Position numbers and translations under genes: made by a program. A DNA stretch of 64,000 bases, from NCBI GenBank assembly GCA_017474265.1, contig JAFVHZ010000103.1, forward strand, positions 614-64,613. Direction: 5' to 3'. Below, in pieces: positions 3,443 through 54,398 of the stretch; the stretch's first letter is position 1; every line of letters starts with the position of its first letter. Source of the DNA: Bacteroidales bacterium. GTDB lineage: Bacteria; Bacteroidota; Bacteroidia; Bacteroidales; UBA932. The notes under the pieces were generated by a model, which saw only the letters and a list, made by a program, of their open reading frames with translations, had not been told where the DNA came from and did no database searches.

Positions 3443-3463
3443 TTGATTCAAGACTAGGATGAC

Positions 3464-3577
3464 AGCGACCCGGAAAAATCGTGAGGTTTTTCCGGGTCGC
3501 TTGTTGTTACGGCTGTTGTCTGTAAGAAAACCTGTTGCGAGTCGGAAGAATGATAGAATCTTTCCGGTTCGCGACAG
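3464..3577. repeat. REP-like hairpin doublet (family A, GCGACCCGGAAAA-N-TTTTCCGGGTCGC), units 72 bp apart
   Basis: Unit 3464-3501 has a perfect 15-bp stem and unit 3532-3577 is degenerate. Same motif as at 21506-21615 and 24083-24190. Lies between convergent genes, so it may also terminate transcription. Confidence 0.8.
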
Positions 3578-5110: not shown

Positions 5111-7144
5111 ATGATTCCACAGGAAACGGTGAACAGGATACTTGATCTGGCGCAGATCGAGGACGTAGTGGGCGATTTCGTGACCCTGAAGAGGGCGGGA
5201 TCGACCTACAAGGCCTGTTGTCCGTTCCATAATGAGAAGACGCCGTCTTTTGTGGTGTCTCCGTCGAAAGGAATCTTCAAATGCTTCGGTTGCGGAAAGT
5301 CGGGCACTGCAGTTGGTTTCGTCATGGAACATGAGAGCATGTCCTATGTCGAAGCCTTGAAATACCTTGCGAAGAAGTACAATGTGGAGGTGGTGGAGAC
5401 GGAAGAAACGGCCGAGGACATCATGCAGAGGCAGAGGAACGAGAGTCTGCTTCTGGTGTCCGAGTTTGCCGGAAAGTTCTTCCAGGAGAGCCTGAAGACC
5501 CAGGAAGGTCAGACTATAGGCTGGCAGTATTTCAAGAGCCGCGGTCTGGAGGACGAGACTATCAGGAAATACGGCCTGGGATGGGCTCCGGTGATGAGGA
5601 CGACTTTCACGGAGGCGGCCCGTGCTGCCGGGTACAAGGAGGAATACCTTCTGGATACCGGCCTTTGCAAGAAATACGATGACGGCAGGGTAGTGGACAC
5701 CTTCCATGACAGGGTGATGTTCCCTATACATTCCGTGAGCGGACGCATCATAGCATTCGGGGGACGTACCCTCAAGACCGACAAGACCATCCCGAAATAT
5801 GTGAATTCCAAGGAGACGGAGATATATGTGAAGAGCAAGTCTCTGTACGGAATATATTTCGCGAAGAACGAGATTTCACGTCAGGACAAATGTATCCTCG
5901 TGGAGGGCTATCTTGATGTTCTTTCGATGCACCAACTCGGTATCCGCAATGTGGTGGCATCCAGTGGCACGTCCCTTACGGTGGATCAGATACGTCTGAT
6001 ACGCAAGTTCACAGACAATGTGACGATCATTTATGACGGTGACAATGCCGGAATAAAGGCAGCCCTGAGAGGAATAGGTCTGGTGCTGAAGGAGGGTCTG
6101 AATGTCAAGGTGGTGCTTCTGCCTGAAGGTCAGGACCCTGATGATTTTGCGAGGAAACATACTCTGGAAGAGGTGCAGGACCATATTGCACGCAACGAGC
6201 AGGATTTCATCGGCTTCAAGACAGACCTTCTTCTTGATGAGGCGGGGGGAGACCCTCTCAAGCGTGCGACACTGATCAATGATGTCGCGGATACGATAGC
6301 CCTGATTCCTGATGCCATCAAGCGCGCTGTATATATCCAGACATGTTCCGCCAAGTTCGATATAGACGAACAGATACTGACCGAGCGCGTGAGCAGGTCA
6401 CGTACGGATATGCTCATTGCCGACAAGAAGGAGCATGACCGGGCAAGAGAACGTGAAATGGCCAGAAACCGTCCGTCCGATGATGTGCCTCCTCCTGAGA
6501 TTCCGGATGAATATGTCCCGTATGATGATTCCGGATATATGCCTTCCGTGCAGCAGGTTCCGGTGGAGGTTCCTGTCGAGGGCATTGTCGTCACAGAGCC
6601 GTATCTGGCGCCATGCGAGAAGGAACTTCTTGGCTTCATTCTGGAGGAAGGATGCACGGACCTGGATTTCGACAGGGATTCAAGGTTCTATGTCGAAGGC
6701 GAGAAGATTAATGTGGCTGAATTCATTGACGGAATTCTTGCGGATGATGATGCCGATTTCGTGAATCCTTCATACAGAAAGGTTTACGAAGAATACTTCA
6801 GGATGTATGATGAGGGCCTTGAGCAGGGGCAGATGCGACGGAGACTTCTGGATCATGCAGATGCAGAGATAGCGGCTGTTGCAAAGGATCTTCTGATAGA
6901 GAAGCATCCGTTGACTGTAAAGAACTATGAGCAGTCTCTGACTGCAACGGCGACACGCCTTGTGATATATGTTCCTAAGACGCTTCTGACCTATCAGTGC
7001 AAGAAGGTGGAACTGGAGTCACGCAGACTTACGGATGAACTTGCCGTGACGACGGATGCCGGCCGTCAGATGGAGATACTCGCGACCTTGGGAGAGTACA
7101 ACCGCCTGCGTACCCGCCTGAACAACGAACTCGGCAGGGTCTGA
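5111..7144 (+). CDS. dnaG: DNA primase
   Basis: Zn finger CPFHNEKTPSF...CFGCG, FGGR, PKYVNS, and TOPRIM motifs VEGYLDV and YDGDNAG. Confidence 0.97.
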   Translation: MIPQETVNRILDLAQIEDVVGDFVTLKRAGSTYKACCPFHNEKTPSFVVSPSKGIFKCFGCGKSGTAVGFVMEHESMSYVEALKYLAKKYNVEVVETEETAEDIMQRQRNESLLLVSEFAGKFFQESLKTQEGQTIGWQYFKSRGLEDETIRKYGLGWAPVMRTTFTEAARAAGYKEEYLLDTGLCKKYDDGRVVDTFHDRVMFPIHSVSGRIIAFGGRTLKTDKTIPKYVNSKETEIYVKSKSLYGIYFAKNEISRQDKCILVEGYLDVLSMHQLGIRNVVASSGTSLTVDQIRLIRKFTDNVTIIYDGDNAGIKAALRGIGLVLKEGLNVKVVLLPEGQDPDDFARKHTLEEVQDHIARNEQDFIGFKTDLLLDEAGGDPLKRATLINDVADTIALIPDAIKRAVYIQTCSAKFDIDEQILTERVSRSRTDMLIADKKEHDRAREREMARNRPSDDVPPPEIPDEYVPYDDSGYMPSVQQVPVEVPVEGIVVTEPYLAPCEKELLGFILEEGCTDLDFDRDSRFYVEGEKINVAEFIDGILADDDADFVNPSYRKVYEEYFRMYDEGLEQGQMRRRLLDHADAEIAAVAKDLLIEKHPLTVKNYEQSLTATATRLVIYVPKTLLTYQCKKVELESRRLTDELAVTTDAGRQMEILATLGEYNRLRTRLNNELGRV

Positions 7145-7175: not shown

Positions 7176-9341
7176 ATGGAAAAGAAATTCAACAGAACGC
7201 TTGTGACCTGTGCGCTTCCATACGCGAACGGTCCTGTTCATATCGGCCACCTGGCCGGTGTATATGTGCCTGCAGACATCTATGTGAGGTACTTGAGGAT
7301 GAGGGGAAAGGATGTTCTCTATGTCTGCGGATCGGATGAGCACGGAGTGCCTATCACCATCAAGGCACAGAAGGAAGGCTGTACTCCGCAGGATATCGTG
7401 GACAGGTATCACAAGATCATCAAGAATTCCTTTACCGGACTTGGCATCAACTTCGACATCTATTCGAGGACTTCGTCAAAGACGCATCATAAGAACGCTT
7501 CCGACTATTTCAGGAAACTTTATGATGAGGGCAAGTTCATCGAGAAGGTGAGTGAGCAGTATTACGACGAGGAGACCAAGACCTTCCTTGCTGACCGTTA
7601 CATCACCGGAACCTGTCCGCGTTGCGGTGCTGAGGGTGCATATGGAGATCAGTGCGAGAAATGTGGTGCGACTCTCAGTCCGGATGAACTGATCAATCCT
7701 AAGTCAGCCCTCAGTGGTGGCGAACTCGTGAAGAAGGAGACCAAGCATTGGTATCTGCCTCTGGACCAGTATGAAGGATGGCTTTCTCAGTGGATTCTTG
7801 AGGGTCATAAGGAATGGCGCAGCAATGTTTACGGACAGTGCAAGAGCTGGATTGACGGCGGTCTTCAGCCTCGTGCCGTGAGCCGTGACCTTAATTGGGG
7901 TGTGCCTGTTCCGGTAGAAGGCGCTGATGGCAAGGTGCTTTATGTATGGTTCGATGCCCCGATCGGATATATTTCAAACACTCAGGAACTTCTTCCTCAG
8001 TCATGGGAGAAATGGTGGAAGAGCGAGGATACGAAACTGGTCCATTTCATCGGAAAGGACAACATCGTCTTCCACTGCATCGTGTTCCCGTCAATGCTCA
8101 AGGCGGACGGAAGTTATATTCTTCCAGACAATGTGCCTGCAAATGAGTTCCTGAACCTCGAAGGCGACAAGATCTCGACATCACGCGGATGGGCCGTATG
8201 GCTTCATGAGTATCTTGAGCAGTTCCCGGGGCAGGAGGACGTGCTCCGCTATGTGCTGACTGCAAACGCTCCTGAGACAAAGGACAACGATTTCTCATGG
8301 AAGGATTTTCAGGCCCGCAACAACAGCGAACTCGTGGCTATCCTCGGTAATTTCGTGAACCGTGCCGTAGTGCTGACCCATAAGTATTTCGAGGGCCGTG
8401 TGCCTGCAGACCTCAAGCCTGAGGCGATAGATGCCGAGACTCTTGCTCAGATCCAGCCTTTGCGCGAGGCCATGGAGAAATATCTTGATGGCTACAAGTT
8501 CCGCGAGGCTCTCAAGGAGGCCATGAACATTGCGCGTCTGGGAAACAAATATCTTACTGATACAGAGCCTTGGAAGGTGGCAAAGACAGATATGGACAGG
8601 ACAGCGTCTATTCTTAATGTTTCACTTCAGATATGTGCTTCTCTTGCAATCGCATTCGAGCCGTTCCTGCCGTTCTCGTCTGAGAAACTCCGCAGCATCC
8701 TGAATGTAGGCATCGCTGCCGGCACAGACCATCGTGCAGGCGAGGAGGGTGCTGTCAGTGAAAACATCTATGCAGCAGGTGAGGGCGCTGCCCTTCATAC
8801 CGGCATTGCATACGACGGCCTTACCCTCTCATGGGACGATCTCGGCAAGGCTTCGATCCTTCCTGCCGGTCATGTCCTCAATCAGCCGACCCTTCTTTTT
8901 GCGAAGATCGAGGATGAGGTCGTGGATGCTCAGATTGCGCGTCTTGAGGCTATCCGTGCTGAGCGTGAGGCTGCGGCGAAGGCTGCAGAGGCCGCTGTCG
9001 TTACTCCTCAGAAGGAAGAGTGTACCTTCGATGATTTCGGAAAGATGGATATCCGTACGGCAACCGTCCTTGAGGCTGAGCGTGTGCCGAAGACAGACAA
9101 ACTCCTGAAACTGACCATCGATACAGGTATCGATAAACGTGTCATTGTGTCAGGCATTGCCGAGCAGTATTCTCCTGAGGAGATGGTGGGCAAGCAGATA
9201 TGTATACTTGCCAATCTTGCTCCGCGCAAGATCCGTGGCATAGAGTCGAAGGGTATGATCCTTATGGCGCGTCAGAACGACGGCAAGATGCGTTTCATTA
9301 CGCCTGCGGAGACTCTCTGCAACGGTGCTGAGATAGGATAA
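7176..9341 (+). CDS. metG: Methionine--tRNA ligase with C-terminal tRNA-binding domain
   Basis: [23 protein letters not shown], Zn knuckle and C-terminal Trbp111-like domain. Confidence 0.97.
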
Positions 9342-9372
9342 TCCCCAGTCATCCCCGGCATGACCGGGGATC
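9341..9372. repeat. Short REP-like palindrome GTCATCCCCGGCATGACCGGGGATC
   Basis: ATCCCCGG-CATGA-CCGGGGAT hairpin (9351-9371), with an alternative pairing ATCCCC-A-GTCAT/ATGAC-C-GGGGAT, in the 40-bp metG-murB gap. Confidence 0.55.
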
Positions 9373-9381
9373 TGAAAGACT

Positions 9382-10755
9382 ATGATAAAGACCAGTTACT
9401 ATAAGGATCTGACGAAGATGAACACCTTCGGAATGAAGGTGAAGGCGAGGTGTTTCATGGAGTATGATTCCGTGGCGGACCTTGTGGATATCGAGTTTGC
9501 GGAACTGGCCCGTCCGGTGCTTCATATCGGCGGGGGCAGCAATCTTCTGTTTACCGATGATTTCAAGGGTACTGTCCTGCATTCGAAGATCAACTTCATT
9601 GAAATATTGGACGAGTGCCAATGTACTCCAGTGGCCCCCTCCCACTCCGTGGGCCCCTCCCCCTACCCGGGGGTGGGAAAATGCCACTTCCGCACAAATG
9701 GCACGTCGTCCGAAGATGTCGATTCTTCGGATTCAGGACATGAAAACGCACCGGAGGTTGTGCTGGTGTCAGTAGGTGCGGGAGTCGTATTCGATGATTT
9801 CTGCGACTGGGCGGCGAAGGAAGGATTGTGGGGTGTGGAGAACCTTTCGTATATTCCTGGAGAGGTGGGTGCTTCTGCCGTGCAGAATATCGGTGCCTAT
9901 GGCGTTGAGGTGAAGGATGTGATCCATAGGGTTTATTGCTACGATACTGTTGAGGAAGAGTTTGTGAATTTCGATGTTTCCGAATGTGATTACGGTTATC
10001 GTCATTCCATTTTCAAGACTCCGGAGGTCAAGGGCAGGTATATCGTGACTCATGTGGTGTTTGCACTGTCGCGTGAGCCGAGGCCACGGCTCGATTACGG
10101 GCATCTGCGTGATGCGGTCTTGTCGGCTTTGCCTGCTGACAGCATCACGGAAACTGAATCCCTCCCATCGCGGGGCGATGGTCCCCTCCCGTTCACGAGG
10201 CCATGGGCGGCCACGGTTTCCGCTGATGCCGCTCAGCAGGCAAAGCCTACGATAGAGGGCACTCCTACCCATTCTGATACGTCCTCCGACCGTCATTTCG
10301 AGCAGAGCGTTAGCGGAGACGAGAAATCTTTGACTAAAGTGTTGACGCCGGCGTTGATCAGGAAGGTGATAATCAGGATCAGGAAGGAGAAGCTGCCGGA
10401 GCCGTCTGTTGTGGGCAGTGCGGGAAGTTTCTTCAAGAATCCGGTGGTGTCTGCCGAGCATTTTGCCCGTATCGAGGCTGCTGCGAAGGCGGAGCATGGC
10501 ACGGATTATAATGTGCCGCATTATGATTTGCTAGGCGGAGCGGTCAAGATTCCGGCTGCATGGATGATAGAGCAGTGCGGATGGAAGGGTCGCAGGAGCG
10601 GAGGGGCTGCGGTGTGGGAAAAGCAGCCGCTGGTTATCGTCAATTATACCGGCGAGGCCTATCCTGAAGAGATCGTCGGCCTTGAGAAGCGTATCATTGC
10701 CTCCGTCAAGGCTAAGTTCGGTGTCGAACTGCATCCGGAAGTGGAACATGTCTAG
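9382..10755 (+). CDS. murB: UDP-N-acetylenolpyruvoylglucosamine reductase carrying two large in-frame insertions
   Basis: NTFGM, GGGSNLL, ENLSYIPGEVGASAVQNIGAYG, YGYRHSIFK, GSAGSFFKNP, AAWMIEQCGWKG and LHPEV motifs. At 457 aa it is far longer than the usual ~340 aa. Confidence 0.95.
   Translation: MIKTSYYKDLTKMNTFGMKVKARCFMEYDSVADLVDIEFAELARPVLHIGGGSNLLFTDDFKGTVLHSKINFIEILDECQCTPVAPSHSVGPSPYPGVGKCHFRTNGTSSEDVDSSDSGHENAPEVVLVSVGAGVVFDDFCDWAAKEGLWGVENLSYIPGEVGASAVQNIGAYGVEVKDVIHRVYCYDTVEEEFVNFDVSECDYGYRHSIFKTPEVKGRYIVTHVVFALSREPRPRLDYGHLRDAVLSALPADSITETESLPSRGDGPLPFTRPWAATVSADAAQQAKPTIEGTPTHSDTSSDRHFEQSVSGDEKSLTKVLTPALIRKVIIRIRKEKLPEPSVVGSAGSFFKNPVVSAEHFARIEAAAKAEHGTDYNVPHYDLLGGAVKIPAAWMIEQCGWKGRRSGGAAVWEKQPLVIVNYTGEAYPEEIVGLEKRIIASVKAKFGVELHPEVEHV
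9607..9713. repeat. Branched palindromic element (family B, copy 1), in frame inside murB
   Basis: Arms GGACGA-GTGCCA..AGTGGC / GCCACT..TGGCAC-G-TCGTCC enclose the head CCCCTC-CCAC-TCC-GTGG-GCCCCT-CCCCC-TACCC-GGGGGTG. Confidence 0.8.
10125..10247. repeat. Branched palindromic element (family B, copy 2), in frame inside murB
   Basis: Perfect 15-bp arms GGCTTTGCCTGCTGA/TCAGCAGGCAAAGCC plus inner GCATCA-CGGAAACTG/CGGTTTCCG-C-TGATGC. Head CCCTC-CCATCGC-GGG-GCGATGG-TCCCCTCCC. Length 123 bp = 41 codons. Confidence 0.82.
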
Positions 10756-21336: not shown

Positions 21337-21344
21337 GTAGAGTA

Positions 21345-21447
21345 ATACAGACAACGGCCTGCTGATTCCGACGATCCTCCCCGCTTACGGGTCCCCTCCC
21401 TTTTCGGGAGCCAATGTCGTTCATAATCAGCAGGCCGCTGTCTGTAT
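21345..21447. repeat. Branched palindromic element (family B, copy 3)
   Basis: 23-bp arms with one mismatch (ATACAGACAACGGCCTGCTGATT / AATCAGCAGGCCGCTGTCTGTAT) around a two-hairpin head that is 53/56 identical to the reverse complement of copy 4. Confidence 0.9.
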
Positions 21448-21505
21448 CGGTGTCTGGGATTGCCTAATCAGGAAGACTCTGCCATCTATCAGATCGGCAA
21501 TCCAA

Positions 21506-21615
21506 CTGTCCCGGAAGAATAGTGTATTTTTCCCGGGTCGCAGTGCCGAATCACATCAAAAGCCGTAAAATGATAACGCGACCCGGAAAATCAGTGCGAT
21601 TCTTCCGGGTCGCGT
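21506..21615. repeat. REP-like hairpin doublet (family A), units 72 bp apart
   Basis: TGTCCCGGAAGAATAGTGTATTTTTCCCGGGTCGCA and CGCGACCCGGAAAATCAGTGCGATTCTTCCGGGTCGCG. Confidence 0.85.
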
Positions 21616-21631
21616 CAGACGTGTTATTATG

Positions 21632-22477
21632 TTATTCTGTCGGTACGAGTTCAAAGAAAGAACTGATTTCCTGCTGATCGATGGCCTGGCGTACATTGAA
21701 CCTCTTCACCTGATCCATGTAGCCGTTCTTTGTTACCTTGATCTCGATCTGCACGTCGCGTGAGTTTGCATAAGTCAGACCGAGGATGTTGAACGACCTT
21801 GTCTCTTCAAACGGTGTCGGGCCGAGATAGAGTTCGTTGGTGTTCTTGACTTCGGCCGGTATGCTCGAAATGACTCTCCAGAATACCCTGGCTCCCCTTG
21901 GAGCAGAGTCAAAATACCATCTGATGATGGTTTGTTCTAAAGTTGTGCCACCTGGATTGTCTCGCGATACCATATCATTCGCACCTCCTGTAGGTATTGT
22001 CGGGTCATTTACATATTGTTGGCTTCTTTCCAACGAACAGAACACACCTTCAGGGTATGTTATATTCAACGGGACGATGCGACCATTATAGTTCTTTACT
22101 TCTCCTCTCGTTGGGGTTATTGTCGGGCGGAATTCAACTTCGGACTTTTCGTATCCGTTTTTTATAAAAATGAAAGTTGAAGATGAAAGATCCGCACTCT
22201 TAGCATAAAAATTGTTTATGTTTTTATGTGGTGATGTGTCGATAATGTTTTTTACAGGAACACTAACTTTCATCGGTGTAATGCCCAGATATTTACCATC
22301 CATGTAGACAGATGCACCTTGCGGCTCCGAGTTGATTTCTACTTCTTTTGAAGTAGGTTCCATAGGAGGCAGACGACGCTCTTGTTGTCTTCTGACACCG
22401 CAAGAAGCAACTATGAATAGCGTGGTGCATAACGCAAGAAGGATTAGAGATGTTCTTAATAACAGTAACTTTTTCAT
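21632..22477 (-). CDS. PEGA-domain lipoprotein
   Basis: Lipobox IVASC, PEGA motif INSEPQGASVYMDGKYLGITP and a second PEGA-like unit FDSAPRGARV...LGPTPF. TAACTTTG at 22496-22503 upstream. Confidence 0.8.
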   Translation of the reverse strand: MKKLLLLRTSLILLALCTTLFIVASCGVRRQQERRLPPMEPTSKEVEINSEPQGASVYMDGKYLGITPMKVSVPVKNIIDTSPHKNINNFYAKSADLSSSTFIFIKNGYEKSEVEFRPTITPTRGEVKNYNGRIVPLNITYPEGVFCSLERSQQYVNDPTIPTGGANDMVSRDNPGGTTLEQTIIRWYFDSAPRGARVFWRVISSIPAEVKNTNELYLGPTPFEETRSFNILGLTYANSRDVQIEIKVTKNGYMDQVKRFNVRQAIDQQEISSFFELVPTE

Positions 22478-22567
22478 GGTTTGTTTTGTTTTTTGCAAAG
22501 TTACCGTTTGGGGGTGGAGGGTTAATGACAAATCAGTATGGTAATTTTACTTATCCGTAAAAACATT

Positions 22568-22780
22568 TTACATCTCTCCAGTGATCTCATCGGAGTAGTA
22601 TTTGAAGAAATCGTGTTTCAAGGCACAGGAAATTCTCATCAGAAGATCGGTATTGATTGATTTCTGCTGAAATATATAATATATGTTAGGACGTTCGCAG
22701 TTGATCTTTCTTGCAAGCCATGCTGGTGTCCTTTCCTGTCTTTCCAGTACTTCCTTGACGATTCTTCCTATATGTACCAT
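22568..22780 (-). CDS. Small XRE-type helix-turn-helix protein
   Basis: HIGRIVKEVL...WLARKINCERPNIYYIF...SINTDLLMRISCALKHDFF, the typical Bacteroidales 70-aa HTH. Confidence 0.85.
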   Translation of the reverse strand: MVHIGRIVKEVLERQERTPAWLARKINCERPNIYYIFQQKSINTDLLMRISCALKHDFFKYYSDEITGEM

Positions 22781-22965
22781 AAAAAAGGATGGAACTATTC
22801 GTTATTTATCTTCAACTGAGGCACCGCCAAGCGCCATGAGTACAGATAAGCACGAATAGTTCACACCCATAGACAGGTATGAACCCTCGCGACTTATTCT
22901 CGTACTCTTCAAATTGGCGGTTTTCAGTTGAGAGAATAAGAGCCCGAAGCCCCAAATATGTATTT
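22781..22965 (-). ncRNA. Candidate structured 5' leader/attenuator RNA with mutually exclusive folds
   Basis: Several overlapping inverted repeats between a TATGTTTG promoter (22973-22980, minus) and the HTH start codon. One fold ends near a U-run; details in findings. Confidence 0.55.
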
Positions 22966-23160
22966 TCTTATGCAAACATACTTAAAATTCCCCATGTTTT
23001 GTCATTTTTATGACTAATGATGGGCAAAGATTTATTTTTATGTGACTAAATTTTATTTTTCATTCGTGATTTGGTCACTATTAATGTGTGTTTCGTCACA
23101 TTTTTCTTTTTCTTATCATGTTTTTCGGAATGCGACCTTAAATTGGATGCAAAAATAAAG

Positions 23161-24114
23161 ATGATGAGAAAGACGTATCACTTATGTTTATCTGCAGGAA
23201 ATCATGGACTGTTGTGCAGAAGAGAAGAAGATTATGTTAGGATGGTGAATTGTATATGTATCGCCGCCTTAAGGACGGAAACCATAGTGTTGGCATTTGC
23301 AGTCATGGCCAATCATATTCATCTATGCGTCAGGTCATACGATCAGGAGAAATACATGAAGACTCTGCGATACATGTATACCCGATACTTTAATTCCAAA
23401 TATCATCGTCGAGGCCGTCTGGGTGAAAGAAGTTATTTTGTCCTGGAACTGGAGGGATTGCATCATATATTGACTGCAATTGCTTATGTGCTCCGTAATC
23501 CTCTTCACCATGGTATATCGGCTACCCCGTTCGGCTATGCTTATACTTCAGCGAATGCGATATTCCGTAAGGCTCTCGGCAAGACTTTGCCGTTGGCATT
23601 GGAGAGGAAAAATATGTATCGTTATCTTCCGGAACCATGTGGTGAAATCCCGTCTGGATATAGGATGGATGTGAAAGGCATGCTGTTCCCTGACGATATC
23701 ATAGATGTTTCGGAAGTCGAACATCTGTTTGCAACCCCAAGATCCTTCCTGTATTATATGAATCGTCTTTCCGGAAAGCAATGGGAGGAGGAGCAGCGGA
23801 AGGATTCTTCTGAGACTATTCCCGTGACTCTCGACGATATAGAAAAAGGAGTCAATGTGCAGACGATTCAGGAAATGCTTGTCGCTGAACATGGCAAGGC
23901 GGATTATAATGCTGTCTCTGATATTACGACATGTCAAATGATTGATGACTATATATCGGAGCATTGTCCTGGATGCAGGTCTGTTTATGACTTGCCGACA
24001 GAGTCTGTTCAAAGCATTATGCGGCATCTGCATATCAAGTACTCTCTCCCGAAGTCGCAACTTCTGCGGTGCTTTCCTGGCTTGTCCCGGAAGAATAGTG
24101 CGTTTTTTTCGTGA
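23161..24114 (+). mobile_element. REP-associated tyrosine transposase (RAYT/TnpA-REP, IS200-like Y1 HUH nuclease)
   Basis: N-terminal YHL strand, AFAVMANHIHL (HUH), YTRYFNSKYHRRGRL and catalytic AYVLRNP; flanked by REP-like hairpins. ATG at 23161 is preferred over TTG at 23071. Confidence 0.85.
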
Positions 24115-24190
24115 CATGGCCGTATTTTAAACAAAAGGGCCGTTAGACAGTCGCCGAAACGGAAAAAACGCACAAATTTTCCGGGTCGCA
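24083..24190. repeat. REP-like hairpin doublet (family A), units 72 bp apart, overlapping the RAYT stop
   Basis: TGTCCCGGAAGAATAGTG is identical (18 bp) to 21507-21524; the second unit ends TTTTCCGGGTCGCA. Confidence 0.82.
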
Positions 24191-24292
24191 TTAAAAAACC
24201 GAAATCGTCGATAAATAGAAAACCAGTTAGTCCTTTGAATTGCTGAGGTGCATCGGAGGAGCAAAGCAGTGGATAGATTGCCAGATGCATAC

Positions 24293-24386
24293 ACAGCGAA
24301 GGCTGTTTATTCAGACGACATTGGCTCCCGAAAAGGGAGGGGACCCGCAAGCGGGGAGGGTTGTCGGAATAAACAGCCTTCGCTGT
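24293..24386. repeat. Branched palindromic element (family B, copy 4; inverted relative to copy 3)
   Basis: Perfect 20-bp arms ACAGCGAAGGCTGTTTATTC/GAATAAACAGCCTTCGCTGT; head GACATTGG-CTCCC-GAAAA-GGGAG-GGGA-CCCGC-AA-GCGGG-GAGGG. Confidence 0.9.
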
Positions 24387-24407
24387 ATCTGTCTTTGAGT
24401 AGCGGAA

Positions 24408-51959: not shown

Positions 51960-54273
<2,314 letters not shown>

Positions 54274-54284
54274 GCGGTTCTTTC

Positions 54285-54398
54285 AATAAGACAGTTCCCG
54301 CTGGATAACAATAAGGTGACATGCCACCCCCGGCCAGGGGGTGCCTCCCGAAAGGGAGGCGGGGGTCATCGGTTGTTACCAGCGGGAACTGTTTTATT
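54285..54398. repeat. Branched palindromic element (family B, copy 6)
   Basis: Arms AATAAGACAGTTCCCGCTGG-A-TAACAA..GGTGAC / GTCATC..TTGTTA-CCAGCGGGAACTGTTTTATT; head CACCCCC-GGCCA-GGGGGTG-CCTCCC-GAAA-GGGAGG. Lies between convergent genes. Confidence 0.87.

What the first reader, a model, noticed from the sequence alone, without database searches (positions are those of the whole stretch)
9607..10330. Essential murB gene carries two in-frame copies of an intergenic palindromic repeat
Seen in sequence: MurB is 457 aa with all catalytic motifs intact but has two non-homologous inserts (~CQCTPVAPSHSVGPSPYPGVGKCHF..., and ~ALPADSITETESLPSRGDGPLPFTRPWAATVSADAAQQAKP...). At DNA level each insert is a long stem-loop (9607-9713 and 10125-10247, the latter with a perfect 15-bp arm). 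Each head, CCCTC-[hairpin]-(G/T)CCCCTCCC, matches the intergenic elements at 21345 and 24293. Copy 1 also shares CCCCCTAC(C/G)CGGGGGTG (16/17) with the reverse complement of the element at 51960. Established knowledge: in-frame palindromic insertions in proteins are known for Rickettsia palindromic elements, while REPs are normally extragenic. Inference: a mobile palindromic family, possibly RAYT-driven, is creating new peptide loops in a housekeeping enzyme of a Bacteroidales, and hit the same gene twice.
Basis: partly seen in the sequence, partly recalled or inferred. Interest (0 to 1): 0.88.

Follow-up and report, generated by a model that had tools for sequence, protein, structure and literature searches.

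The report
Mobile hairpin repeats inside murB
The cell-wall gene murB of this uncultured ruminant-gut Bacteroidales bacterium carries two in-frame copies of a mobile hairpin repeat that also sits in other housekeeping genes, and a strain comparison suggests it builds its own hairpin arms by copying the neighbouring target DNA backwards.

Summary
murB (9382-10755, 457 aa) holds two long hairpins (9615-9703 and 10122-10250). Covariance models built only from other copies in the genome hit them at E 1.7e-24 and 5.6e-17.

- **Family:** about 35 copies in this 72%-complete MAG. Each has a conserved 50-70 nt core with the head CCCTCCC-hairpin-GCCCCTCCC, between copy-specific inverted arms.
- **Genic copies:** six lie in frame in Pfam-confirmed genes (murB twice, hutI, aroK, aroE, an RluA-type gene).
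- **Empty alleles:** eight same-genus murB genes lack both inserts.
- **Same-species MAG (RGIG4752):** an internal deletion at site 1, the same site 2 insert, and a new copy at a third murB site.
- **Structure:** AlphaFold2 models both inserts as disordered, between confidently folded parts.
- **New result:** in aroE, the occupied allele equals the empty allele plus the element plus an exact reverse-complement copy of the 15 target bases 5' of it. Insertion therefore seems to create the arms, unlike a direct target-site duplication.
- **RAYT link:** unproven. The window's Y1 gene (23161-24114) has its own hairpin doublets, and type C family copies bracket the island.
- **Head 25-mer:** it also occurs in Azospirillum, Microbacterium and Firmicutes-labelled records.

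Translation of the inserts is inferred, not shown.

The parts
9382..10755 (+). murB coding sequence, 457 aa. It is the only full murB match in the genome.
   Evidence: ORF; Pfam MurB_C and FAD_binding_4; PDB MurB E 2e-57; single full match in G000.
9615..9703 (+). Insert 1: a type B copy of the repeat family. It has short arms GTGCCA/TGGCAC and is read through in frame (about residues 79-107).
   Evidence: Model R2, built without it: 90.5 bits, E 1.7e-24. Hairpin z -4.6. Absent from 8 same-genus orthologues.
9626..9694 (+). Core of insert 1 (CTCC...TTCCG, 69 nt = 23 codons). This is the unit missing from a variant contig that keeps the arms.
   Evidence: Logan contig of run X6 joins 9602 to 9695 with 23 homologous letters between (tables 5 and 5c). 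G093 lacks 54 internal nt here.
9704..9760 (+). Probable decayed older small repeat (GTCATTC.GAGCGAAG..GAATCT type). It is shared, in better or worse state, with G013, G002 and G010 at the same loop. Limits are approximate.
   Evidence: Codon-level comparison of site 1 in four genomes. The assignment is by eye.
10122..10250 (+). Insert 2: a type A copy with about 30-bp arms (5' arm 10122-10154, 3' arm 10216-10247), read through in frame.
   Evidence: Model R1, built without it: 75.6 bits, E 5.6e-17 at 10136-10238. Hairpin z -6.1; inverted repeat. Absent from G013, G008 and others. Present unchanged in G093.
10291..10329 (+). Copy of a second, small repeat family (GTCATTTCGAGC...GAGAAATCT), in frame. 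It is older than insert 2 and shared with G002 and G093.
10519..10548 (+). murB site 3, empty in this genome. The same-species MAG G093 has a full type B copy here, and G002 a small repeat.
9348..9372 (+). Small palindromic repeat just upstream of the murB start. It is present, absent or duplicated in other samples.
   Evidence: joints 9341-9382 in run X3; 2 copies in the genome.
21345..21447 (+). Type C family copy between the ABC-ATPase gene and the PEGA-domain gene. It forms the left outer end of the 3-kb Y1 island.
   Evidence: The island is absent in G013.
24293..24395 (-). Type C family copy, inverted relative to 21345-21447. It forms the right outer end of the island, just before efp.
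23161..24114 (+). Y1 (HUH) transposase-like gene, 317 aa, with an HIH motif and a YVLRNP tyrosine motif plus a long C-terminal extension.
   Evidence: Pfam Y1_Tnp 24.8 bits (cut-off 23). NCBIfam REP_Tyr_transpos 30.7 bits, below its cut-off of 80.
51965..52051 (-). Related intergenic copy (type B variant with another head).
   Evidence: R2 52.9 bits, E 3.3e-13; sequence.
54299..54385 (-). Further related copy.
   Evidence: R2 27.4 bits, E 1.6e-5.

Best explanation
The two murB inserts are separate, fairly recent insertions of a non-autonomous mobile hairpin element. The family has a conserved, branched, C-rich core in at least four tail variants (A to D) that share the head CCCTCCC-small hairpin-GCCCCTCCC.

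**Shown**
- The family is multi-copy.
- Copies are present or absent between near-identical genomes.
- Copies lie in frame in several housekeeping genes.
- Every copy has its own arms.

**Inferred mechanism**
- The element moves as the core plus a few base pairs of inner stem.
- On insertion, 7-15 or more bases of the target lying 5' of the element are copied in reverse complement onto its 3' side.
- A likely route is that the free 3' end of the inserted strand folds back on the core's closing stem and primes synthesis on its own 5' flank.
- This creates a new outer layer of arms at each site and explains why the arms are copy-specific.
- Cores can later be lost, leaving hairpin footprints. 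Hairpins and tolerant loops are hit again.

**Why genic copies survive**
- Only insertions of a multiple of three bases persist, in one of the 4-5 stop-free frames, in surface loops.
- There they are read as disordered peptide loops.

**Which enzyme moves it**
This is open. A Y1/HUH single-strand transposase of the RAYT kind is my best guess, at about 0.4.
For: **Family and significance**
- 29 strict and about 35 curated copies in G000.
- Models built without the murB copies hit them at E 1e-17 to 1e-24.
- The head occurs in 57 of 81 genus genomes; the reversed-pattern control gives 0-3 in most and 5 in one.

**Arms**
- Each arm matches only its own partner in the genome.
- The A-run and T-run next to type A cores co-vary in length.

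**Genic, in-frame copies**
- murB twice, hutI, aroK, aroE and an RluA-type gene, confirmed by Pfam.
- The head is open in all six frames, and the cores in 4-5 of 6.
- About a dozen more spanning ORFs in other genomes.

**Empty alleles of murB:**

**Mobility within a species**
- aroE, C198 and C220 are occupied in G000 and empty in G093.
- murB site 3 is occupied in G093 and empty in G000.
- Insert 1 has a 54-nt internal deletion in G093.
- A core-only loss at site 1 appears in run X6.

**Inverted target duplication**
- In aroE the 3' arm equals the reverse complement of the 15 bases that precede the insertion point in the empty allele, 15 of 15. The direct reading matches only 8 of 15 (my count by eye on the sequences). 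The chance of a given 15-mer is 9e-10.
- C198 shows an extra 11 nt that match the reverse complement at 10 of 11.
- G002:C84 against the empty G000 allele favours an ancestral 5' arm: score 117 against 105 and 83, with 3 of 200 shuffles as good.
- In aroK and at murB site 1, different core types follow the same 5' sequence, with 3' arms of different length complementary to it.

**Structure:** inserts have pLDDT below 50, between elements above 85.
Against: - Only one junction (aroE) is unambiguous. C198 and C220 lie in palindromic targets, where direct and inverted duplication look alike.
- Against more distant empty alleles, three of six comparisons score best with both arms absent and two are ambiguous.
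- The new murB site 3 copy in G093 shows no clear inverted copy of its 5' flank. It carries arms like those of site 1, so arms can travel with the element.
- In one case (G013:C59) the far end of the 3' arm, not the 5' arm, resembles the empty allele.
- Translation of the inserts is not shown, and the RNA contigs were uninformative.
- No transposase is linked to types A, B or D.
Confidence: 0.72

Rival explanations
1. Hairpin first. The arms are not made by the element. Long hairpins (terminators, or footprints of earlier events) already exist, and the cores insert into their tops and excise precisely, so the arms only mark the target.
For: - At C198 the empty allele is a 10-bp terminator hairpin and the element sits in its top.
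- The X6 variant keeps the arms without the core.
- Different core types occupy the same site in G013 and G000: murB site 1, aroK and C244.
- The genome holds 58 perfect hairpins with stems of 14 bp or more, against 0 in a shuffled genome.
Against: - The aroE empty allele has no hairpin. The second arm appears only with the element and is an exact reverse complement of the flank.
- The empty alleles of G013:C48, G013:C59 and RGIG7900 lack any arms.
- Both processes may operate. This rival explains re-use of sites, not the origin of the arms.
Confidence: 0.3
2. The family is a REP/REPIN-type population moved by the Y1 (RAYT-like) transposases of this lineage, in particular the one at 23161-24114.
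For: - The Y1 gene carries HUH and Tyr motifs.
- Two inverted type C copies form the outer ends of a 3-kb island that G013 lacks.
- A second Y1 paralogue in G008 has a type C copy with related arms about 330 nt downstream.
- All 16 genus genomes with 10 or more heads have Y1 homologues. The 16 without any Y1 hit have no more heads than the control, bar one with two more.
- Other Y1 paralogues have their own dispersed hairpin doublets, and a REPIN-like doublet differs between the two strains.
Against: - The immediate flanks of this Y1 gene are GCGACCCGG hairpin doublets, not the head family.
- No Y1 homologue lies within 4 kb of any of 112 head copies in other genomes.
- Five other Y1 relatives that are 48-51% identical have no head copy nearby.
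- The genus genomes are kin, so the co-occurrence overstates the link.
- The NCBIfam RAYT score is below its cut-off.
Confidence: 0.4
3. The inserts are never part of the protein. They are removed from the mRNA (for example by cleavage at the long stem and re-ligation) or skipped by the ribosome, so the open frame is incidental.
For: - Perfect stems of 26-30 bp inside an essential mRNA should be hard to translate and are RNase III-like substrates (inference).
- UUCG-type loops in the head suggest that RNA-level structure matters.
Against: - All six genic copies in G000 keep the frame and avoid stops.
- The indels between strains are multiples of three: 54, 69 and 87 nt.
- Only stop-free frames are used.
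- This pattern is what selection on translation predicts. It is not needed if the segment were removed.
Confidence: 0.07
4. The inserts are not insertions at all. They are old lineage-specific MurB loops, or an assembly artefact in which repeat copies were stitched into murB.
For: - The MAG is fragmented, and contigs break at the repeat (the C159/C165 overlap of 141 nt).
- The left junction of insert 1 was not seen in an independent contig.
Against: - Empty alleles exist in 8 genus genomes, and insert states differ in G013, G002 and G010.
- Independent contigs of two studies cover the insert 2 junctions.
- A separately assembled same-species MAG has the same insert 2 and a deletion derivative of insert 1.
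- The model E-values are 1e-17 to 1e-24.
Confidence: 0.02

Closest known systems
Rickettsia palindromic elements (RPEs)
   Same: Both are palindromic repeats of about 100-150 bp found in frame inside genes that stay functional, adding peptide segments, and also found between genes. (The RPE description follows PMC3733652, background section; the rest is from my own knowledge.)
   Different: No sequence likeness was found. The host is a free-living gut Bacteroidales, not an obligate intracellular alphaproteobacterium. Here the core is conserved while the arms differ in every copy. As far as I know, an inverted duplication of the target has not been described for RPEs.
REP / REPIN sequences with RAYT (Y1, HUH) transposases
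   Same: Both are short dispersed palindromes, often after genes. Y1 genes flanked by hairpin repeats are present in the same genome, including this window. REPs are occasionally found inside coding regions (PMC3733652, discussion).
   Different: In REPs and REPINs the stem is conserved and the loop or spacer varies; here it is the reverse. No GTAG or CGTC tag was established. The nearest repeats to the Y1 gene belong to another family. The NCBIfam RAYT model scores below its cut-off.
Bacterial MITEs (Correia, ERIC, BOX, Nezha and others)
   Same: Both are non-autonomous, about 100 bp, form hairpins in RNA or DNA, are modular (as BOX is), and can lie in or next to genes and act on transcripts.
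   Different: MITEs have family-wide terminal inverted repeats and direct target-site duplications. Here the terminal arms are copy-specific, and the one clean junction shows an inverted, not a direct, duplication.
IS200/IS605 single-strand 'peel and paste' transposition, and rolling-hairpin replication of parvoviruses (both HUH enzymes)
   Same: Both involve hairpins recognised in single-stranded DNA. IS200/IS605 inserts 3' of a short target without direct duplication and excises precisely. In rolling-hairpin replication a folded-back 3' end primes synthesis and makes inverted copies. Together these give a plausible chemistry for what is seen here.
   Different: No transposase gene lies inside the element. 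IS200/IS605 makes no duplication at all. The comparison is one of mechanism only, taken from knowledge of those systems and PMC6006769, and was not tested.

Membership tests
MurB (UDP-N-acetylenolpyruvoylglucosamine reductase) | FAD-binding domain plus the MurB C-terminal domain, aligned end to end with solved MurB | tested here: met
   Pfam MurB_C 88 bits and FAD_binding_4 47 bits. Three aligned blocks with P. aeruginosa MurB, E 2e-57.
MurB (UDP-N-acetylenolpyruvoylglucosamine reductase) | Conserved active-site residues (Arg, Ser and Glu of E. coli MurB; residue roles recalled from memory) | tested here: inconclusive
   The columns Y206-R207-S209, G345...S349-F350-F351 and E453 are invariant in 18 orthologues and intact here. 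Their mapping to the catalytic residues was not checked on a structure.
REP/REPIN-RAYT system | The repeats flank a single-copy Y1 (RAYT) gene in inverted orientation | tested here: inconclusive
   Two inverted type C copies bracket the 3-kb island that holds the Y1 gene. Another hairpin doublet family lies between them and the gene. Types A, B and D were never seen next to a Y1 gene.
REP/REPIN-RAYT system | Conserved palindromic stem with a GTAG or CGTC tag; the loop or spacer varies | tested here: not met
   The outer stems are unique to each copy and the centre is conserved. No conserved tag at the foot was found by eye.
REP/REPIN-RAYT system | The protein reaches the curated RAYT model | tested here: not met
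   NCBIfam REP_Tyr_transpos scores 30.7 bits against a cut-off of 80. Pfam Y1_Tnp scores 24.8 against 23, which is met.
Rickettsia palindromic elements | Palindromic repeat inserted in frame in otherwise conserved genes | tested here: met
   Six genic copies in G000, with empty alleles in relatives. This shows likeness of behaviour only.
Rickettsia palindromic elements | Sequence membership in an RPE family | not tested
   No RPE sequences were on hand. Rfam has no match for the inserts.
MITE | Family-wide terminal inverted repeats and a direct target-site duplication | tested here: not met
   The arms differ in every copy. The aroE junction shows an inverted 15-nt duplication, 15 of 15, against 8 of 15 for a direct one (my count by eye on the sequences).

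The most novel reading that the evidence does not exclude
This would be a so far undescribed kind of bacterial mobile element, with three properties.
- Its insertion writes an inverted copy of the adjacent target DNA, so each copy builds its own long hairpin. This would be an 'inverted target-site duplication', probably made by fold-back priming after a single-strand transfer.
- The same head 25-mer is shared by Bacteroidales, Firmicutes-labelled MAGs, Actinobacteria and Alphaproteobacteria. That points to a broadly spread system or a conserved recognition partner.
- As by-products it would seed new terminator-like hairpins between genes and new disordered loops inside essential enzymes.
Probability: 0.3. 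Interest if true: 0.85.

Novelty: new variant of a known kind. Interest (0 to 1): 0.72.

Why it matters
- **Wider occurrence.** In-frame palindromic repeats in essential genes are textbook only for Rickettsia. Here the same behaviour appears in a large clade of free-living gut Bacteroidales (Cryptobacteroides-like MAGs of ruminants). It hits murB, aroK, aroE, hutI and others repeatedly and differs between strains of one species. It is therefore an ongoing source of protein length variation and of MAG fragmentation.
- **A possible new insertion chemistry.** The aroE junction, where the element comes with an exact reverse-complement copy of the flank, would explain how a repeat family can have conserved centres and unique stems. 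It would also give a simple route by which bacteria gain long hairpins, such as terminators or RNase targets.
- **Annotation.** These elements produce spurious 'hypothetical' peptides and odd loops in otherwise conserved enzymes.

Tried and rejected
- **Rfam.** At gathering scores there were no hits in the window. At loose E-values the only hit was a plant microRNA hairpin model matching the long stem, which I take as chance likeness of shape.
- **Source of the arms.** No arm has a third copy in the genome, so 'arms copied from a donor locus or foreign DNA' was dropped for this 72%-complete genome.
- **RNA evidence.** The metatranscriptome run X17 gave only short contigs over the multi-copy cores, plus one contig of a relative with another 73-nt insert. 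This says nothing on whether the inserts are transcribed or removed.
- **Distant empty alleles.** Six pairs at 67-88% flank identity gave mixed scores, so they cannot settle the origin of the arms.
- **Sites C38 and C133.** They were not found in G093.
- **rluA.** In G093 only a 67-76% relative was found.
- **Site C73.** It is occupied in both genomes.
- **Extra 2.67 kb in G093 beside hutI.** It encodes DUF1016, a porin-like protein and a protein with no family, and no transposase.
- **Y1 protein.** It has no sequence relative among solved structures.
- **Head 25-mer in viruses.** No exact match in viral contigs.
- **Literature.** Searches with the head sequence, and for inverted target duplication by HUH elements, found nothing relevant.
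- **Inverton reading.** An invertible promoter between inverted repeats was considered and dropped. The arms are not conserved and the GC-rich core has no Bacteroidetes promoter motif; this was judged by eye only.
Full report
**What is at the coordinates**

The ORF 9382-10755 (+) encodes a 457-aa MurB. Pfam finds FAD_binding_4 and MurB_C. phmmer aligns it with solved MurB proteins in three blocks (E 2e-57). These leave query residues 72-121 and 246-324 opposite only about 9 and 12 residues of the Pseudomonas enzyme. It is the only full murB match in the genome.

At the DNA level both extra segments are long hairpins.
- 9600-9720 folds at -28.6 kcal/mol (z -4.6).
- 10120-10252 folds at -42 kcal/mol (z -6.1).
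- No shuffle of 200 folded as well.
- The outer arms of the second hairpin are 18 nt at 94%, including a perfect 15-mer.

**Are they copies of a repeat?**

The pattern CCCTCCC-N(3-30)-CCCCTCCC occurs three times in the window and never in 100 shuffles. It occurs 29 times in the 2.35-Mb, 297-contig, 72%-complete genome. With one mismatch allowed and a hairpin required, about 35 true copies emerge.

The copies fall into tail types.
- Type A is the insert 2 type.
- Type B is the insert 1 type.
- Type C is the type at 21345 and 24293.
- Type D is a fourth variant.

I built covariance models from 12 type A and 6 type B copies, all taken from other contigs.
- Model R1 finds insert 2 at 10136-10238 with 75.6 bits, E 5.6e-17.
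- Model R2 finds insert 1 at 9615-9703 with 90.5 bits, E 1.7e-24.

**Anatomy of the family**

Every complete copy has a conserved centre of 50-70 nt and, outside it, a perfect or near-perfect inverted repeat of 6-30 bp that differs from copy to copy. Each arm matches only its own partner in the genome.

Next to type A cores, the run of A on the left and the run of T on the right co-vary in length (3 to 6). The small hairpin inside the head also varies, with compensating changes. Its variants are shared between species and so mark subfamilies.

The 5' arms of types A and D are G-rich (G 0.31-0.33 against C 0.18-0.20). I have no explanation for this bias.

**Empty sites and history in murB**

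Twelve same-genus genomes gave murB.
- Eight have murB genes of 332 to 349 aa with neither insert (G008, G007, G012, G001, G009, G014, G003, G005).
- Site 1 holds a type A copy in G013, read in another frame than insert 2 of this genome.
- Site 1 holds small repeats of another family in G002, G010 and G007.
- Site 2 holds that small family in G002 and, next to insert 2, in this genome (10291-10329).
- A third site holds it in G002.

These loops are therefore used again and again, and newer elements sit beside older, decaying ones.

**Other genes**

Six of the roughly 35 copies lie inside real genes and keep the frame.
- murB, twice.
- An imidazolonepropionase-like amidohydrolase (hutI).
- Shikimate kinase.
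- Shikimate dehydrogenase.
- An RluA-type pseudouridine synthase.

Pfam confirms all of these. The head is stop-free in all six frames, and the cores in four or five of six.

In 89 copies from other Bacteroidales records, 15 have ORFs open for at least 60 codons on both sides. About a dozen of these look like real genes, including aroE, aroK, prmC-like and thiL-like genes, but they were not checked by family search.

**Is it real and mobile?**

The species occurs in gut metagenomes of animals from ten studies. Logan contigs of two studies cover the insert 2 junctions and the right half of insert 1 with 0-1 mismatch. One contig of a third study lacks exactly the 69-nt core of insert 1 but keeps the arms.

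The record 'Bacteroidales bacterium RGIG4752, roe deer rectum' (G093) is 96-98% identical to this genome. Its murB is 471 aa, with three differences of note.
- Insert 2 is the same.
- Insert 1 has lost 54 internal bases, including the head.
- A full type B copy sits at a third site, which is empty here (10519-10548). That copy shares the arm sequence and the tail variant of the site 1 copy, while its inner stem is that of the 51965-type element.

G093 is also empty where this genome is occupied at aroE, at C198 and at C220. All indels inside genes are multiples of three.

**Where the arms come from**

This is the main new result.

In aroE, the empty allele reads ...CCGGGGATATGCCGG|ACAAAG.... 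The occupied allele has four parts in order.
- The same 15 bases, with one later change.
- The element with a short inner stem of its own.
- CCGGCATATCCCCGG, which is the exact reverse complement of those 15 bases.
- The old downstream sequence.

A direct duplication would match only 8 of 15 (my count by eye). The net gain is 87 nt, or 29 codons. In the element's own orientation, the ancestral arm is the 5' one.

Weaker cases show the same polarity.
- At C198 the extra 11 nt match the reverse complement at 10 of 11, but the target is itself a terminator hairpin.
- G002:C84 against the empty allele here scores 117 for an ancestral 5' arm, 105 for an ancestral 3' arm and 83 for both arms new; 3 of 200 shuffled arms scored as well.
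- In hutI, the arm on the element's 5' side resembles the orthologue's N-S-A-D codons.
- At murB site 2, the 11 codons of the 5' arm take the place of the 10-codon linker of G008.
- In aroK and at murB site 1, different core types in different genomes follow the same 5' sequence, with 3' arms of different length complementary to it.

Other evidence goes against the model or leaves it open.
- Three comparisons with more distant empty alleles fit best with both arms absent.
- One case hints at the opposite polarity.
- The site 3 copy in G093 carries arms like its presumed donor, with no clear new layer.

My reading is that the unit that moves is the core with a few pairs of inner stem. Each insertion then adds an outer layer copied backwards from the target. 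Cores can be lost while the arms stay.

A folded-back 3' end priming on its own 5' flank would produce this. That step is inference, borrowed from what HUH enzymes do in IS200/IS605 transposition and in rolling-hairpin replication.

**Which enzyme?**

The only Pfam Y1_Tnp hit in the genome is the window ORF 23161-24114 (24.8 bits against a cut-off of 23). It has HIH and YVLRNP motifs and a long C-terminal part. The NCBIfam RAYT model scores 30.7, below its cut-off of 80. By the motif table of PMC6006769 it looks like a class 2 (TnpA-REP-like) protein.

It lies in a 3.06-kb block between an ABC-ATPase gene and efp. G013 lacks this block and has an ordinary bidirectional terminator there. The outer ends of the block are the two inverted type C copies.

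Directly around the gene, however, lie hairpins of another kind (GCGACCCGGAA...). A further copy of that hairpin lies at window 3463-3501.

Three more Y1 paralogues (38-51% identical) exist in the genome. Each is flanked by its own hairpin pairs, and two of those families are dispersed in the genome. A Y1 paralogue in G008 has a type C copy with related arms about 330 nt downstream.

Across 81 genus genomes the two features co-occur.
- All 16 genomes with ten or more heads have Y1 homologues.
- The 16 genomes without a Y1 hit have no more heads than the reversed-pattern control, bar one with two more.
- These genomes are kin, so this is only a hint.

No Y1 homologue lies within 4 kb of 112 head copies in other genomes. 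That is expected for a single-copy helper, but it also gives no support. I put the Y1 link at about 0.4.

**Structure**

AlphaFold2, run with 18 orthologues, gives pTM 0.75. The MurB fold has pLDDT of 85-97. Residues 79-122 and 257-313 fall below 50 with no secondary structure. The first lies between two strands and the second between two helices. This fits tolerated surface loops, but it is a prediction.

**Taxonomic range**

The exact 25-mer head occurs in more than 112 stretches of the species-representative genomes. Most are ruminant and other animal-gut Bacteroidales MAGs, several named Candidatus Cryptobacteroides, plus Muribaculaceae, Bacteroidaceae and Alistipes records.

It also occurs in isolates of Azospirillum and Microbacterium. 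Further hits are in Sphingomonas, other Alphaproteobacteria, a betaproteobacterial MAG, and gut MAGs labelled Anaerovoracaceae, Lachnospiraceae and Coprococcus. The non-Bacteroidales copies I looked at again sit between copy-specific inverted arms. Misbinning could explain the Firmicutes-labelled bins but not the isolates. No exact match was found in viral contigs.

**Comparison with what is known**

In behaviour, this is the Rickettsia palindromic element story in a free-living gut clade. REPs inside coding regions have also been noted before (PMC3733652).

In architecture it is the reverse of REPs and REPINs, because the centre is conserved and the stems vary. It also fails the MITE definition, having no family-wide terminal repeats and no direct duplication. 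I found no paper that contains the head sequence or describes inverted target duplication by such elements.

I therefore file it as a new variant of a known kind. There is a fair chance (about 0.3) that the insertion mechanism is new.

**Earlier notes of this scan**

Notes on the same window describe three things: the branched repeat family with copy-specific arms, the 72-bp hairpin doublets, and the mirror-symmetric Y1 island. My results agree with all three. The doublet note sharpened my doubt that the head family is the Y1 gene's own repeat.

**Limits**

- Both genomes are fragmented MAGs.
- Only one junction is unambiguous.
- Expression, translation and enzyme activity are untested.
- The reversed-pattern controls show that a few head matches per genome can arise by chance in GC-rich genomes.

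Noticed in passing
window 21337-24407: The whole 3-kb block between the ABC-ATPase gene and efp is absent in G013, which has a plain bidirectional terminator there. The block holds a PEGA-domain ORF at 21632-22531 (-) and the Y1 gene at 23161-24114 (+). It is bounded by two inverted type C copies.
   Followed up: partly
window 3463-3501, 21510-21615, 24150-24195: Hairpins of the form GCGACCCGGAA...TTCCGGGTCGC flank the Y1 gene and recur elsewhere in the window. They are probably this Y1 gene's own REP-like partner.
   Followed up: partly
G000 contigs C163:4471-5385, C17:13071-13979, C194:6535-7443: Three more Y1 paralogues, each with two private hairpins on either side. The C163 type (GAATCAAAAA-loop-TTTTTGATTC) gives 31 pattern hits (palindromic, so both strands are counted) on 11 contigs, often as pairs about 80 nt apart. 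The C194 type (CATGTACCAC / CATGTACAAC) recurs as doublets 74 nt apart on about eight contigs.
   Followed up: partly
L230:1624-1739 (G093:C31), beside the G000 C269:772 site: A 116-nt doublet of CACTGTGACG...CGTCACAGTG hairpins is present in G093 and absent in G000. It is a REPIN-like insertion that differs between the two strains.
   Followed up: no
L070, L073, L080, L105, L112, L116, L120, L141, L154 and others: The exact 25-mer head occurs in isolates of Azospirillum and Microbacterium and in other non-Bacteroidales records. In the copies I looked at it is again embedded between copy-specific inverted arms. In Azospirillum the C-rich flanks pair with G-rich partners outside.
   Followed up: partly
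G000 C135:500-544, C44:6478-6516, C192:2465-2509, C220:~5640-5680: Another small family has the same build: a conserved centre GCGTGCT.CCC.TTGGC.GCACGC between variable outer stems that often end in TACA...TGTA. The genome has 58 perfect hairpins with stems of 14 bp or more, against 0 in a shuffled genome.
   Followed up: no
L003 (G002 murB), L005 (G010 murB), L006 (G007 murB); G000 C8:12317-12380 and others: Small repeats of the type GTCATTC.GAGCG-AAG-.CGAGGAATCT, and GTCATGCCCGG...CCGGGCATC, are also read in frame in the murB loops of relatives. They give peptides such as CHSERSEES, VIPSEVEES and TVMPGSTGH. The genome has 15 or more copies, some in tandem.
   Followed up: partly
G000 C38:13799-13941: A 69-bp perfect inverted repeat with a 4-nt loop lies at the very end of a contig. 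It is most likely an assembly fold-back artefact.
   Followed up: no
G000 C159:~5722-5865 and C165:1-~145: Two contigs share about 141 identical bases that start inside a type A core. This marks an assembly graph branch at the repeat; the repeat family is one cause of the fragmentation of this MAG.
   Followed up: no
L240/L241 (G093:C60:8045-10717): G093 has 2.67 kb beside hutI that G000 lacks. It encodes a DUF1016 protein, a porin-like protein and one protein with no family, with a head copy about 200 nt from its right end.
   Followed up: partly
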